From the NCBI RefSeq assembly GCF_021869535.1, contig NW_026262581.1, positions 5,022,001-5,086,000 of the forward strand: 64,000 nt of DNA, read 5' to 3'. The position numbers were made by a program. Below, piece after piece: positions 36,001-42,000 of the stretch. Each line of letters starts with the position of its first letter. Position 1 is the first letter of the stretch. The stretch comes from Mytilus californianus (taxonomy: Eukaryota).

Positions 36001-39000
36001 ACCTCGATATAGATTGGGGCTATGCGTTACTCACATGATTAAGTGGTCAGTGATGTGTTGTACTTTTTAGCGACTATTTTTTTATATAACCATGGTCTTA
36101 CAAATTCTGCTTTTTTTAAGTGATTTTACGGTGTTTTATTTGTTTTTTTTTTATCGCGCCTTATATGTTAAAGTTCTATCGTACAAAATATATATATGGG
36201 TGCGGCCCGATTAAACGTGTTGGTATTTTGGTTTTATTAGTTCACATAATTTCAGGACAATTTACAATTGTTGAATGCATAATCAAAGGCTTATAGAAAT
36301 TTTTATCTATCAAGTATTGGTACTTGTGTCTTATTTTCAATGACATAAATTTCGGTGTTAGTGTCTCTTGATGAAGAATTTTGTCTTGCATATAAAACGG
36401 CGCTAATATTTCGTTGTATATATACACAACAGTACAATGTATTCTTTGAAAAAATGAATTCGACATGTTATATAATTATGTCGAATTTTCTGATTAGAAT
36501 ATGAGACAGACAATGCTTGAAATGTGTCACTCATACATATTACACTTTAAAAAACGAAGCTGGAAACAGTTTTTTAAAGTATAATTTACCATTGTAATTA
36601 CAAAAAGTGTTTTATGACAATAAATCAAATTTTATTTATGTATTTTTTTTTATTTTGTAATTTTGTGAAACAATACAAAATTACTAATTTAATGGTTCTT
36701 TATGTTGTACTTATTATTAGGGCAATATATCATTACTTTATAGATATAGCCTCCTTCTACTCCAGTATGGTCTCACCTTGTATGAACTGAACTGATTCTT
36801 TTAAGAGATATGCACTAGTGTGCTAATGTTCTTTGCACGTTGTAATCAACTTACAAAGTGTTTAAAGAGGTTTAATTGCTGTAAACATTAAAAGGAGTGT
36901 AATATGTAAATAAAAAACTTTCTTTTTGTTTAAAAGCATACATGTACATGTATATCGTATTACCTTAGCAAACAACATCATTTCAAACTACGCAAGAGAG
37001 CTTCTCTTTTCTTTGAAGAATGTTTGAGGATAAAGTATGATGCATTTGGTTTTGTTTGTTGATTTGATAAACTGTTTGGCAAGATGTTTGCATAAGAATA
37101 GGTTTTCTTGATTTTATATTTGCACATCCGTAAACATAAATTCGGTTGAAAATAACGAACTTTCAAGTTAGTTGGTCTCATATATTATACTGGAGTGAAA
37201 TATCCCAGTTAATCCTGCAATTTGATTTGTTACCTAAACAGGGGATAACAGCCCATATCCCCTGTGAAGGGAAACAAAGATAAAAATGGTAATTAGTGTT
37301 GAAAGCAGGACACAGTATAATATAATTGTTATTCGGGCTTCACAGGGGATATGGGCTCATATTTCCTGCTAGTGCCCTATATCCCGTTCGACTGACGGCT
37401 CAGGAGGTAATATGAGCCCACATTCCCTGTGAAGATCCTGAATAACATATATGATTCAACATAAGAAACCCATACACAGGATGACAATATTTGTTTTAAA
37501 CGACAGAAGAAAGGCTTTTTGAAACACATAATGGATCCGTTCAATTTAAATATGCTCGTTACTTATAACTCAGTACCGTTCATGTGACCCGAATTCCGGT
37601 CATAAGCATTATTTTTTGCTAAACATTTGATTCAAACCTCAAGTTATTGGCTACCTTACCTCATACCGAACAGACTTTGGACTTAAATGAAATCTGTTAA
37701 TATCAGTTACTCCTAAAGTGTCAGTGAAGTGTCTTTTGTAATTGACCTTTTTGGAAAAATAGATCAATTATCATACCTTAGCTTTTCAAAACCACGACTG
37801 TATTATAAAAAGAAATTAAAATGAAAATGTGGAAATCAGAGGTTATGAAAATGTTGCATTTGGCCATCAGGATTATGTTAATCAATCGTTCACTTATGCT
37901 GTTTAAAATATTAAGCCCCCAAATATTGTGTGACCCGATACAAATTTCCATCATTTTAATAACATTATGTATTGCTTGAATCGATAAATGAAAATACAGA
38001 CTAGTTCATGCTTGTTTAAGCGCTGTTCTTTTGCCTTTTGTGTTTTTTTGCTGTGTGTGTACTGGTTTTGTGCCGTGGATGGAAACCGCGTAGCTATGGA
38101 ACGCCATGACTGTCTTCTGATGTTGATTGTTAAATATGTTCGGTGCTTTATGCATTACGTTCAGTAGTATTTATATTTTGTTCAGTAGTTTTCATATTAT
38201 GTTCAGTAGTTTTGACATTATGTTCAGTAGTTTTGACATTATGTTCGGTGCTTTGGTTATTATCTTCAGTAGTTTCATTATTATATGCAGTGGTATTTAA
38301 ATTATGTTCGGTACTTCTGACGTTATATTCAGTGCATTTTTCATTATGTTCAGTACTTTCGACATTATGTTCAGTAGATTCAATATTATTTGCAGTACAT
38401 TATGTCTTACCTTCAGTGGTCCCGGTTTCTTTATATTCGGTAGATTATTCATTATGTTCAATAAAAGCATCAGTATTATACTCGGTTCAATGAACTATAT
38501 GTTCAGTAGTTGTATCATTATGATGATGCAGTGAAAGTCGGGAAATCAATAACGGAAATTTTCAGAAAAAAAACGAACGCGGATATTTTCGACGGACGTT
38601 TTCTTCATGGACACTTTTATGGGATCAGGAATGAAAATGGAAGAAATGGAAGCAGTATTAAATTGGTTTGGTTTACGTTGACACATTGGCAATTTTCACA
38701 AGGAAATAAAATACTCCTGACCTAATTTGTAAGATGTCATGATTGATTGATTGTTTGTTGTTTTCTGAACGTACAGTGGCAAATATTTCACGCATATTTA
38801 TGACGGAGAGAAGATTTTTAAACAAGAAATTGCATGCGTTGTCGTTGATACAACATGACCATAGAGAGACGACAAAAAGACAAACAGCAAAAAAAATAAA
38901 ATATAAAAACATATTCTATAGCTTTTGTATTCCTAGTAGGTAATCATTTTTGTTGGTTGGTTGTAGCATATTTATCTCATGCACCGACTTTTAAGAGACC

Positions 39001-42000
39001 ACGAAAAATCTCCTTGCAGATACTCCTATATTATTCTGCATCCTACCCCGCTAATAGGCGCTTGAATATCAGATATTTATTTGAAATAACCCAAGATAAA
39101 TGAGGTTGTGGATGAGGTTTACAGAATAGAGAAAGTTGATTCATAAATATAACCATATCAATGATAATTCATGGTAACACGGATTAGCCTCGAACTTGAT
39201 CTGGATATTGTCAATCTATTCCTCTTCATTCTGGCTACCATTGGTGGATCTAGAGACTAAATCCAGAAAAATGTTTTAAACGCTCTGTTCAAGAACAGAT
39301 ATTAAGTTATTGGTTTGGGTAGTTTCTAGTCTCTTATTAAACAAAAAGGGTCATGTTTTATGCATTGCTTTAAAATACATTTGTAATAAGAACCATAACT
39401 GTACAGAAATGGTGAAAATTTGCACATAAATAAAGTTTTGCACTTTGTATTTTGATATTCATTACCTGTCTAATAGACAGTCTATGGTAATCATATTTAC
39501 ACTTAGACCTAGTTAGTTTTTGTGTATACAGCTTGAATTTGGAAGGATAAAAATCTTAATAAATGATTTCAAAATGACAATCATACTGATACTCAATGTT
39601 CATTGTTTGTAGCACTTTGTACAATATTTCATTCTATACCCTTTCATACCAGCATAAATTTCAATGTAGCTCTTTGAATGAATGAAATTTATGACTAGTT
39701 GTTTTCTGTTTTTTCTGCTATTGCAGAGCTTTTTGCTGTCATTTTTGTCTGAACTCTATCACGAACTGTTTTATCATTGTTGTAATAATTTCTGACACAA
39801 TGCAGGAGAAGAATGTAAGATTACCTTTGTCTGCAATAGTGGACGAAATAGTACGTCAAGATTTGTTAACTCGTGCAAGATCGTGATTTTAGAGGAAAAT
39901 ATCGATTGTACATAGTTTGAATGGTAACATCAATTAACCAGTTCTGATTACGACCAGTTCAACATTTCATTCGGTATGCAGAAAAAGTTTAGTTATTCTA
40001 TTAATCATTTAATTCTGTAATCACTTTTTTTTTTTACCTTTTTCCAAAGTTTTAAACATTTTTTTTTAAAGCACCCCTTTATTCTCTATTCTTTACTTTT
40101 TGCCCACCTTCTCTTTTTGGGGGGTAGGGGCATTATTCTCTATTCTGTAAACCTCATCCACAACCTCATATATCTTGGGTTATTTCAAATTAATATCTGA
40201 TATTTAAGCGCCTTTTAGCGGGGTAGGATGCAGAATACAATAAGAATATCCAGAAGGAGATTTTTGGTGGTCTCTTAAAAGTCGGTAAGTCTGTGCATGG
40301 ATTAATATGCTACAACCAACCAACAAAAAGGATTGCCTTCTAGGAATACAAAAGCTATAGAATATGTTTTTATATTATTTTTTTTTTGCTGTTTGTCTTT
40401 TTGTCGTCTCTCTATGGTCATGGTGTATCAACGACAACGCATGCAACTTCTTATTTTTTGTTTAAAAATTCTTCTCTCCGTCATAAATATGCGTGAAATA
40501 TTTGCCACTATACGTTCAGAAAACAACAATCAATCAATCATGACATCTTACAAATTAAGTCAGGAGTAATTTTTTTCTTGTGAAAATTGCCAACGTGGGA
40601 ACGTAAACCAACCCAATTTAATACTGCTTCCATTTCTTCCATTTTCATTCCATCCCGTAAAAGTGTCCATGAAGAAAACGTCCGTCGAAAATGTCCGCGT
40701 TCGTTTTTTTCCGACAATTTCCGTTATTGATTTCCCAATTTTTACTGCATCATCATAATGATACAACTACTGAACATATAGTTCATTGAACCGAGTATAA
40801 TACAGGTGCTTTTACTGAACATAATGAATAATCTACCGAATATAAAGAAACCGGGACCACTGAAGGTAATACATAATGTACTGCAAATAATATTGAATCT
40901 ACTGAACATAATGTCGAAAGTACTGAACATAATGAAAAATGCACTGAATATAACGTCAGAAGTACCGAACATAATTTAAATACCGGCACTGCATATAATA
41001 ATGAAACTACTGAACATAATAACCAAAGCACCGAACATAATGTCAAATCTACTGAACATAATATAAATACTACTGAACATAATGCATAAAGCACCGAACA
41101 TATTAAACAATCAACATCAGAAGACAGTCATGGCGTTCTATACATAGCTTTCGTTTTTATATTGTAGTGGACTAATTATTTAAGTTTTTATATTGTAGTG
41201 GAAATGGCATCGGGCTATTTACTGGACGATTCGTGTTATAATGGCAGCATATGCTCTAGGGGCTGTAATAACAAGCTATGTGATGTCCGTTGGAGATAAA
41301 CATATCATTCTTGTGTATTTAACCATTTGGACATTCACACTGCTTACAATACATCTATGGATAGCTACTGTCATAACAATATTTTACAGACCAACTATGG
41401 ATAAATCTGGTGAAAAAATGCATGGTGTTACAAATCCAGATTTTCTACCTTCAAGTGTTGAAAGTACCATTTCACAAACAGCAGACACGAGCAGAAGCAA
41501 CATAGAAGATATAAGATGTATTCCGTGGTTCTTAAAACTGTCATGGTTGCTTGGAAACGTCGTGTTGGCATTTGAAATTGTGGTTACAATAATTTACTTT
41601 GTATTTTTATTTCCGGATGAGAAAAACCGGGGCGTATTAATCAACAACATGAATATGCATGCTATGAATACAGTGTTTGTTTTGGTTGATTTTTGTATTA
41701 GTGCAAGACCTGTTTATTTGCTGCATGTGATTTACCCAATTATATATGGAACTATCTATGCTGTATTTAGCGTCATTTACTGGACACAAGACCACGTGAA
41801 TAACGTGCTATATTCTGTTCTAGATTGGAATAGTCCAGGTTATGCTATTGGTCTGGTAGTGATTTTAGCTATTGTCATTCTACCTTTGTTTCAACTTATA
41901 TTTTTTGGATTGCATCGTTTAAAGTTAAAGATCTATTATCATTTATATAAGACGACATATTTTTAAAACATTTATAACACTCAAAATGTCTGCATGCATT

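What the first reader, a model, noticed from the sequence alone, without database searches (positions are those of the whole stretch)
38092..41149. 3-kb foldback-like palindrome inside the rolling-stone intron, ending ~50 nt from the acceptor
Two ~1-kb inverted arms each have an outer 21-bp tandem array and an inner unique domain, the modular layout of Foldback-type transposons. The left arm has two more 21-bp units than the right, so the arrays have changed since the arms formed. I see no TSD and no ORF in the spacer. If transcribed, the pre-mRNA would form a ~1-kb duplex next to the branch point, a potential substrate for A-to-I editing or siRNA production, or a modulator of splicing. The ORF-track 'proteins' at 38143 and 40783 are artefacts of this array.
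Basis: partly seen in the sequence, partly recalled or inferred. Interest (0 to 1): 0.65.

Follow-up and report, generated by a model that had tools for sequence, protein, structure and literature searches.

The report
Foldback-like palindrome in mussel intron
A 3-kb non-coding inverted repeat shaped like a foldback transposon sits in an intron of a mussel rolling-stone-like gene just upstream of the splice acceptor; it is real but probably an ordinary, decayed repeat.

Summary
Window 38092-41149 is a 3,058-nt palindrome with arms of 1,042 and 1,014 nt and a 1,002-nt unique spacer. The arms are 94.7% identical and differ by 8 indels.

Each arm has a ~40-nt terminal domain, then about 19 (left) or 17 (right) 21-bp units, then a ~600-nt unique inner domain. 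The left arm has exactly two extra units, and they look like a recent expansion.

The palindrome lies on the + strand in the 7,978-nt intron of a Mytilus-like rolling-stone-like gene. It ends 49 nt before exon 2. Nothing in it looks coding.

The layout matches foldback-type long-TIR transposons. The two features that would show mobility are missing:
- The target-site duplication is not significant. The best candidate matches 6 of 8, and 518 of 3,000 random pairs do as well.
- Copy number could not be tested, because no mussel genome was available. There is no second copy in the window.

A one-off local inverted duplication remains a serious rival. The intron RNA should fold into a ~1-kb hairpin. 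A-to-I editing is plausible. siRNA production is doubtful in molluscs. Interest is low to moderate.

The parts
33137..33220 (+). Coding exon 1 of the rolling-stone-like gene (28 aa, MCDILK...YTCQ), followed by the donor CAG|GTATGT
   Evidence: tblastn of M. trossulus P0001 residues 1-28, 89% identity. Donor read.
33221..41198 (+). Host intron, 7,978 nt, GT...AG, phase 0
38088..38095 (.). Left copy of the only candidate target-site duplication (GCGTAGCT). Not significant.
   Evidence: 6 of 8 match with 41142-41149. 518 of 3,000 random position pairs score as well.
38092..38131 (+). Left terminal (flanking) domain. Bases 38099-38131 pair perfectly with 41138-41106.
38132..38530 (+). Left outer domain: 21-bp tandem array. 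14 units are in strict register to 38425, then about 5 degenerate units follow. Conserved core is ATTATnTTCrGT. Units L3-L5 (38174-38236) are a recent local expansion.
38531..39133 (+). Left inner unique domain
   Evidence: 92-94% identical to the right inner domain
39134..40135 (.). Unique non-coding spacer (middle domain), 1,002 nt
40136..40745 (-). Right inner unique domain
40746..41105 (-). Right outer domain: 21-bp array. It has two units fewer than the left arm, plus a 3-nt insertion.
41106..41149 (-). Right terminal domain. It contains the 4-nt TATA indel. Bases 41142-41149 can alternatively be read as the right copy of the candidate TSD.
41153..41202 (+). Exact 19-mer GTTTTTATATTGTAGTGGA present twice (41153-41171 and 41184-41202). 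This duplicates the polypyrimidine tract, the AG and the first 4 exon bases. A CTAAT branch-point-like motif lies between the copies at 41172-41176.
   Evidence: 2 matches, 0.01 expected. Sequence read.
41199..41966 (+). Coding exon 2 of the rolling-stone-like gene (255 aa plus stop). Pfam Rost, PF21534.

Best explanation
It is a decayed, non-autonomous long-TIR DNA element of the foldback type, or a structure built the same way. It sits in the 8-kb intron of a Mytilus-like rolling-stone-like gene.

Each 1-kb arm carries the same three parts:
- a short terminal domain;
- an array of a 12-13-nt conserved core repeated every 21 bp (two helical turns), which I infer to be a reiterated binding site for a transposase supplied in trans;
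- a unique inner domain.
The 1-kb middle domain encodes nothing.

Since the arms last shared a sequence they have gathered about 5% substitutions and 8 indels. One of these is a 1-to-3 unit expansion in the left array. The element is therefore old and probably immobile.

Its present effect is most likely passive. As part of the pre-mRNA it should fold into a ~1-kb imperfect hairpin that is removed with the intron. That hairpin would bring 38091 next to 41150 and so shorten the effective intron by about 3 kb. It would be a likely ADAR substrate.

Shown: the structure, the position, the lack of coding signal and the predicted fold. Inferred: origin by transposition, the binding-site role of the array, and any RNA-level consequence.
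For: 1. Long inverted arms with sharp ends, E = 0.

2. The domain order matches the foldback scheme in passages of the Tetris paper (PMC4079207): flanking domain, tandem-repeat outer domain, inner domain, non-coding middle domain, variable repeat number. Those passages also say that tandem repeats inside Galileo TIRs carry extra transposase-binding sites.

3. The array starts within about 20-40 nt of the outer end of both arms. If the arm ends were random breakpoints around a 400-nt array inside a 1,040-nt arm, an offset of 40 nt or less would be expected about 6% of the time (my arithmetic).

4. The core ATTATGTTCAGTA occurs 16 times at up to 1 mismatch, against 0.32 expected. All 16 lie in the two arms, in mirror orientation. 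Positions 2-6 and 8-13 of the unit are 77-100% conserved, while positions 14-21 and 1 vary.

5. Units within an arm share 14.2 of 21 bases on average. Eleven of the 12 right-arm units match their positional partner in the left arm at 20-21 of 21; the twelfth (R6), which carries the 3-nt insertion, matches at 15 of 21. So a heterogeneous array already existed when the arms were formed.

6. No coding signal. None of the 17 element ORFs has a Pfam match above cut-off. Two array ORFs found no homologue. The third gave only low-complexity heptad hits: 14 at E <= 1e-3 and 0 at E <= 1e-10.

7. Misassembly is unlikely. The arms differ by 53 substitutions and 8 indels, a 1-kb unique spacer separates them, and the window has no N.

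8. The predicted RNA MFE is -1,753 kcal/mol, against -614 to -646 for 4 shuffles. 954 of 1,042 left-arm bases pair with the right arm.
Against: 1. No convincing target-site duplication. The best candidate consistent with the inverted repeat is GCGTAGCT / ACATAGCT (6 of 8). 518 of 3,000 random position pairs do as well under the same search freedom. At about 5% arm divergence, a 7-10 bp TSD should still be recognisable.

2. No second copy of array, inner domain or spacer in the other 61 kb. This only excludes a family of tens of thousands of copies.

3. No transposase among the 18 of 24 window ORFs of 110 aa or more that I scanned. Those 18 gave only RT fragments, TSP1 exons and Rost.

4. Arm-to-arm divergence is uneven: 8 of 357 positions in the array against 42 of 595 in the inner domain (Fisher p = 0.0009). 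A single insertion decaying neutrally does not predict this.

5. The terminal bases resemble no superfamily terminus that I can recall. This is recall only, not a test.
Confidence: 0.45

Rival explanations
1. It is a one-off local inverted duplication and not a transposon. A replication template switch or fold-back repair event copied about 1 kb of intron, which already held a 21-bp minisatellite, in reverse orientation 1 kb away. The foldback-like look is a coincidence, or arises because tandem arrays attract breakpoints.
For: - No significant TSD.
- Single copy in the window.
- An exact 31-nt-period duplication of the acceptor region starts 4 nt after the right arm ends. This fits a complex local rearrangement.
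- The array was already heterogeneous before the arms formed.
Against: - The array abuts the outer end of the arms (about 6% by chance, my arithmetic).
- There is a perfect 33-nt terminal domain.
- No clear microhomology at the inner junctions. This was read by eye and not tested statistically.
Confidence: 0.3
2. The arms are two independent insertions, in opposite orientation, of the same ~1.04-kb dispersed repeat. The spacer is ordinary intron sequence.
For: - Both arms stop at the same inner and outer boundaries.
- The window is full of dispersed repeats.
- 5% divergence would be typical between members of a family.
Against: - Neither arm has its own TSD. The best scores are matched by 96% (left arm) and 58% (right arm) of 400 random 1,040-nt intervals.
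- No third copy or fragment in 61 kb.
- Two full-length copies 1 kb apart would be a coincidence for a family that is otherwise absent from the window.
Confidence: 0.12
3. It is a selected RNA element: a hairpin-RNA or structured-intron locus whose duplex is kept for small-RNA production, editing or control of rolling-stone splicing.
For: - A very stable predicted hairpin.
- 20 perfect runs of 20 nt or more, the longest 114 nt, 734 nt in all.
- Its base lies 49 nt from the acceptor, next to a duplicated acceptor.
- The array part of the arms is better conserved than the inner part (p = 0.0009).
Against: [quoted passage not shown]
- The arms resemble no protein-coding target.
- No Rfam family at E <= 1.
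- Transitions that would keep a G:U pair are no commoner for the sense transcript (11) than for the antisense one (14) (counts).
- No expression data.
Confidence: 0.08
4. It is an assembly artefact: a chimeric read or a mis-joined haplotype.
For: Mussel genomes are highly heterozygous and hard to assemble. This is general knowledge and comes from no call.
Against: The arms differ by 53 substitutions and 8 indels of up to 42 nt. A 1-kb unique spacer separates them. There is no N in the window, and the feature is mid-contig.
Confidence: 0.05

Closest known systems
Foldback-type DNA transposons: Drosophila FB, D. virilis Tetris, D. buzzatii Galileo, sea-urchin and Chironomus foldbacks (as listed in PMC4079207, passages read)
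   Same: - Very long inverted arms make up two thirds of the element.
- The arms are modular: terminal domain, tandem-repeat outer domain, unique inner domain.
- The middle domain is non-coding.
- Repeat number differs between the arms.
   Different: - No verified 7-10 bp TSD.
- Copy number and mobility are unknown.
- The repeat unit is 21 bp, against about 220 bp in Tetris.
- No sequence comparison with any described family was possible.
Tandem-repeat-bearing non-autonomous elements of bivalves: Helentron-derived HINEs, pearl/CvE, MgE of Mytilus, DTC84 (PMC7492417, passages read)
   Same: Short satellite-like arrays are carried inside a non-coding mobile-looking unit in a bivalve genome, sometimes in introns.
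   Different: In those elements one central array lies between two different flanking modules with short subterminal inverted repeats. Here two mirror-image arrays lie at the outer ends of 1-kb inverted arms.
Drosophila hairpin-RNA (hpRNA) loci
   Same: A long inverted repeat that would give an intramolecular dsRNA.
   Different: hpRNA arms derive from, and target, protein-coding genes and feed a Dicer-2/AGO2 pathway (recalled). Here no coding similarity was found, and molluscs show no evidence of such a pathway.
KolobokP composite-like transposons of bivalves (PMC9587614, passages read)
   Same: Long terminal repeats of 450-660 bp; abundant in bivalves, including Mytilus.
   Different: Their long repeats are direct, their TSD is TTAA and they encode a transposase. 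Here the repeats are inverted, the flanks are not TTAA and nothing is encoded.

Membership tests
Foldback-type long-TIR DNA transposon | Long terminal inverted repeats that make up most of the element | tested here: met
   Arms of 1,042 and 1,014 nt in a 3,058-nt element, 94.7% identical
Foldback-type long-TIR DNA transposon | Modular arms with a tandem-repeat domain and a unique inner domain, around a non-coding middle domain | tested here: met
   21-bp arrays at 38132-38530 and 40746-41105. Inner domains of ~600 nt. Spacer without a Pfam match.
Foldback-type long-TIR DNA transposon | Variable number of tandem units between arms or copies | tested here: met
   42-nt (2-unit) indel. L3-L5 are 18-20 of 21 identical, against a mean of 14.2 of 21.
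Foldback-type long-TIR DNA transposon | Target-site duplication (8-10 bp in Tetris) | tested here: inconclusive
   Best candidate is 6 of 8 (38088-38095 against 41142-41149). 518 of 3,000 random pairs score as well.
Foldback-type long-TIR DNA transposon | Several dispersed copies sharing termini (evidence of mobility) | not testable with these tools
   No eukaryotic genome collection was available. No copy elsewhere in the window. Two scans of the bacterial and archaeal collection gave 0 hits, as expected.
Foldback-type long-TIR DNA transposon | A related autonomous element or transposase | not testable with these tools
   No transposase among the 18 of 24 window ORFs of 110 aa or more that were scanned
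Bivalve HINE / pearl-like tandem-repeat elements | A single central array between two unlike modules with short subterminal inverted repeats | tested here: not met
   Two mirror arrays at the outer ends of 1-kb inverted arms. Definition taken from PMC7492417.
hpRNA / endo-siRNA locus | Arms homologous to a target gene | tested here: not met
   No homologue for the array ORFs, and no Pfam match above cut-off for 17 ORFs. The inner-domain ORFs were compared with Pfam only.
hpRNA / endo-siRNA locus | 21-24-nt small RNAs from the arms | not testable with these tools
   No read data. [quoted passage not shown]
KolobokP | Long terminal direct repeats and a TTAA TSD | tested here: not met
   The repeats are inverted. 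The flanks read ...CCGCGT and TTCGTT.... Definition taken.

The most novel reading that the evidence does not exclude
The palindrome is the first recognised copy of a Mytilidae foldback family. Its 12-13-nt core, repeated every two helical turns, would be a transposase-binding array. The intronic copy would have been retained because its ~1-kb hairpin, together with the duplicated acceptor 4 nt downstream, tunes splicing or editing of the rolling-stone-like transcript.
Probability: 0.07. Interest if true: 0.5.

Novelty: new member of a known kind. Interest (0 to 1): 0.25.

Why it matters
If it is a transposon, it adds a foldback-type family to the bivalve repeat catalogue. My two searches (foldback with Mytilus, 5 papers; foldback with transposable elements and bivalve, 11 papers) showed foldback elements cited only as a Drosophila comparison in the two papers whose passages I read. 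The other papers I saw only as listings.

It is also a concrete, easily assayed case of a kilobase-scale intronic dsRNA in an animal group reported to lack a dedicated endo-siRNA pathway. That makes it useful for asking what molluscs do with long endogenous dsRNA. Otherwise it is an ordinary decayed repeat in an intron.

Tried and rejected
- Left-flank and right-flank similarity that looked like a long duplicated acceptor: at chance. 402 of 500 and 327 of 500 shuffles score as high.
- TSD scans of the whole element and of each arm alone: nothing significant.
- Coding origin of the 21-bp array (heptads TEHNxxT or CSVVLTL):
  - No homologue for the 77-aa ORF.
  - No homologue for the 83-aa ORF among longer proteins. 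Its near-length class was not searched.
  - The 119-aa ORF gave 14 weak hits, the best at E = 3.4e-8. The four I fetched are translations of unrelated 21-bp repeats.
  - Pfam gave only sub-threshold noise: Tropomyosin 16.2 bits against a cut-off of 38.6.
- Rfam at E <= 1 over 36500-42500: 0 matches. tRNA scan of the window: 0.
- Sensitive search for diverged copies in the rest of the window (nhmmer, and blastn with word size 7): only A-rich low-complexity matches.
- Bacterial promoter and terminator scan: at shuffle level, and irrelevant for a eukaryote.
- Two exact-pattern scans of the bacterial and archaeal genome collection, hoping for host contamination: 0 hits.
- Paper search for the core 14-mer: 0 papers. 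Rolling stone with Mytilus: 6 papers, none of the 5 listed relevant.
- KolobokP and HINE/pearl architectures were considered and rejected on structure.
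Full report
**What is there**

Window 38092-41149 is a genuine 3,058-nt palindrome. The repeat finder gives collinear inverted segments of 281, 157, 151 and 157 nt and more, at 87-97% complementarity. A blastn self-comparison joins them into one alignment: 38095-39133 against 41142-40136, 89% over 1,058 columns with gaps counted, E = 0, 1,404-1,413 bits. In the MAFFT alignment, scored, the arms share 939 of 992 aligned positions (94.7%). There are 25 transitions, 28 transversions and 8 indels of 42, 3, 1, 2, 1, 4, 8 and 7 nt. 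The spacer, 39134-40135, is 1,002 nt and unique. The window has no N.

**Anatomy of an arm (left-arm coordinates)**

- 38092-38131 is a terminal domain. Bases 38099-38131 pair perfectly with the right arm.
- 38132-38425 holds 14 units of exactly 21 bp. About five degenerate units follow, to ~38530.
- 38531-39133 is a non-repetitive inner domain.

Within the unit, positions 2-6 and 8-13 (ATTATnTTCrGT) are 77-100% conserved over the 26 units examined. Positions 14-21 and 1 vary. The 13-mer ATTATGTTCAGTA occurs 16 times at up to 1 mismatch, against 0.32 expected. All 16 lie in the two arms, on opposite strands.

Units within an arm share 14.2 of 21 bases on average. Eleven of the 12 right-arm units match their positional partner in the left arm at 20-21 of 21. 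The twelfth (R6), which carries a 3-nt insertion, matches at 15 of 21. The array was therefore already old and heterogeneous when the arms last shared a sequence.

The three left units L3-L5 are 18-20 of 21 identical to each other and correspond to one right-arm unit. This points to a 1-to-3 expansion in the left arm rather than a loss on the right.

**Host gene**

The 255-aa frame at 41199-41966 is 90% identical to "protein rolling stone-like isoform X1" of Mytilus trossulus and 88% identical to that of M. edulis. It matches Pfam Rost, PF21534. The DNA is therefore from a mytilid mussel, probably a Mytilus species other than those two.

Mapping the M. trossulus protein onto the window places residues 1-28 at 33137-33220 and residues 29-282 at 41199-41957. 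The donor is CAG|GTATGT and the acceptor is TTGTAG|TGG. The palindrome lies in this 7,978-nt intron and ends 49 nt before exon 2.

I searched exon 2 on its own and located exon 1 with the reference protein. I did not build or search a joined spliced model.

**Coding capacity**

None is detectable. ORFs are open in two + frames and two - frames there.

- The 77-aa array ORF has no homologue.
- The 83-aa "TEHN" ORF has none among longer proteins. Its near-length class was not searched.
- The 119-aa ORF gives 14 hits at E <= 1e-3 and none at E <= 1e-10. The four I fetched are translations of unrelated 21-bp repeats.
- None of 17 ORFs from the arms and spacer reaches a Pfam cut-off.
- Rfam gives nothing at E <= 1, and there is no tRNA in the window.

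**Is it a transposon?**

The layout matches the foldback scheme in passages of the Tetris paper (PMC4079207): flanking domain, tandem-repeat outer domain, inner domain, non-coding middle domain, variable repeat number and 8-10-bp TSDs. The same passages note that tandem repeats in Galileo TIRs carry additional transposase-binding sites. A conserved core at two-helical-turn spacing in mirror orientation at both ends fits that idea. This is an inference.

The array also abuts the outer end of each arm. Random breakpoints would give this about 6% of the time (my arithmetic).

The features that would show mobility fail or could not be tested.

- **Target-site duplication.** The only candidate appears if the inverted repeat is read without a gap to 38096/41141. 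The flanking 8-mers are then GCGTAGCT and ACATAGCT, 6 of 8 matching, with both differences G/A at CpG sites of the left copy. Under the same search freedom, 518 of 3,000 random position pairs do as well.
- **The same bases read two ways.** With a 4-nt gap they can instead be read as an extension of the inverted repeat to 38092/41149, because TAGCTA is itself palindromic. The two readings cannot be separated here.
- **Copies in the window.** No other copy of array, inner domain or spacer exists in the remaining 61 kb, even at relaxed sensitivity. This only excludes a family of tens of thousands of copies.
- **Transposase.** None appears among the 18 of 24 window ORFs of 110 aa or more that I scanned. 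Those 18 gave RT fragments at 1045-3257, 42225-42767 and 54367-54834, TSP1 exons at 9688-17523, and Rost. Of the six ORFs I dropped, four overlap others or lie in a tandem repeat, and two are the array ORFs, one of which had been scanned.
- **Genome search.** No mussel genome could be searched. Two exact-pattern scans of the bacterial and archaeal collection found nothing, as expected.

**Rivals**

- **Local inverted duplication.** This fits the missing TSD and the single copy. It also fits an exact duplication, with a 31-nt period, of the acceptor region that starts 4 nt after the right arm (19-mer at 41153 and 41184; 2 matches against 0.01 expected).
- **Two independent insertions.** This is disfavoured. 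Neither arm has its own TSD: 96% (left) and 58% (right) of 400 random 1,040-nt intervals score as well.
- **Misassembly.** This is unlikely given 53 substitutions, 8 indels and a unique spacer.

One observation that none of these models predicts: arm-to-arm divergence is 8 of 357 positions in the array but 42 of 595 in the inner domain (Fisher p = 0.0009). Gene conversion between the arms or constraint on the core motif could explain it. I could not distinguish between them.

**RNA-level consequences (inferred)**

The sense RNA of 38092-41149 folds at -1,753 kcal/mol, against -614 to -646 for 4 shuffles. 954 of 1,042 left-arm bases pair with the right arm. There are 20 perfect runs of 20 nt or more, the longest 114 nt.

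The duplex base is at 41149. The best branch-point-like motif (CTAAT, 41172-41176) and the polypyrimidine tract lie downstream of it, outside the duplex.

Transitions that would keep a G:U pair are no more frequent for the sense transcript (11) than for the antisense one (14) (counts). There is therefore no sign of selection for pairing.

ADAR homologues are reported in lophotrochozoan genomes (PMC6651903; I saw only the start of the abstract in the listing). [quoted passage not shown] Editing is therefore the more plausible fate, and siRNA production the less plausible one.

**Verdict**

The structure is real and accurately described. It works like, and most likely is, a decayed foldback-type non-autonomous element (confidence about 0.45). 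A one-off inverted duplication is the main alternative (about 0.3). It is a new member of a known kind, of low to moderate interest.

Noticed in passing
window 41153-41202: The exact 19-mer GTTTTTATATTGTAGTGGA occurs twice, 31 nt apart. This duplicates the polypyrimidine tract, the AG and the first 4 exon bases of the rolling-stone exon 2 acceptor. Use of the upstream AG (41166-41167) would add 31 nt, shift the frame and stop after 43 codons (the ORF 41168-41299). A CTAAT branch-point-like motif lies between the copies.
   Followed up: partly
window 38132-38530 versus 38531-39133: The arms are much more alike in the array (2.2% mismatches) than in the inner domain (7.1%), Fisher p = 0.0009. 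This is unexplained. Gene conversion or constraint on the core motif are possibilities.
   Followed up: partly
window 55578-57154 and 58014-58105: A satellite-like array with a ~73-bp unit, about 19 copies, and a higher-order period of ~586 bp (families D1, D2, D5).
   Followed up: no
window 10456-12474: A tandem duplication of ~1,018 bp at 94-99% identity (families D4, D10, D11, D14). It lies next to thrombospondin type-1 (TSP1) domain exons at 9688-10137 and 17164-17523.
   Followed up: no
window 44229-44516 and 51816-52466: Two further tandem arrays: a 36-bp unit in 6 or more copies, and a ~167-bp unit in 4 copies (families D6 and D8).
   Followed up: no
window 1045-3257, 42225-43711, 54367-54834: Reverse-transcriptase and endonuclease fragments of retroelements (Pfam RVT_1, Exo_endo_phos_2). 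One of them starts about 260 nt after the stop codon of the rolling-stone-like gene.
   Followed up: no
window 6347-6444, 12826-12923, 24539-24636, 26854-26951, 48212-48309; also 8142-8383 versus 26512-26753: A dispersed ~100-nt repeat family with 5 copies (D9), and a 242-nt pair in inverted orientation at 98% identity, 18 kb apart (I2). The window is rich in small interspersed repeats, none of them related to the palindrome.
   Followed up: no
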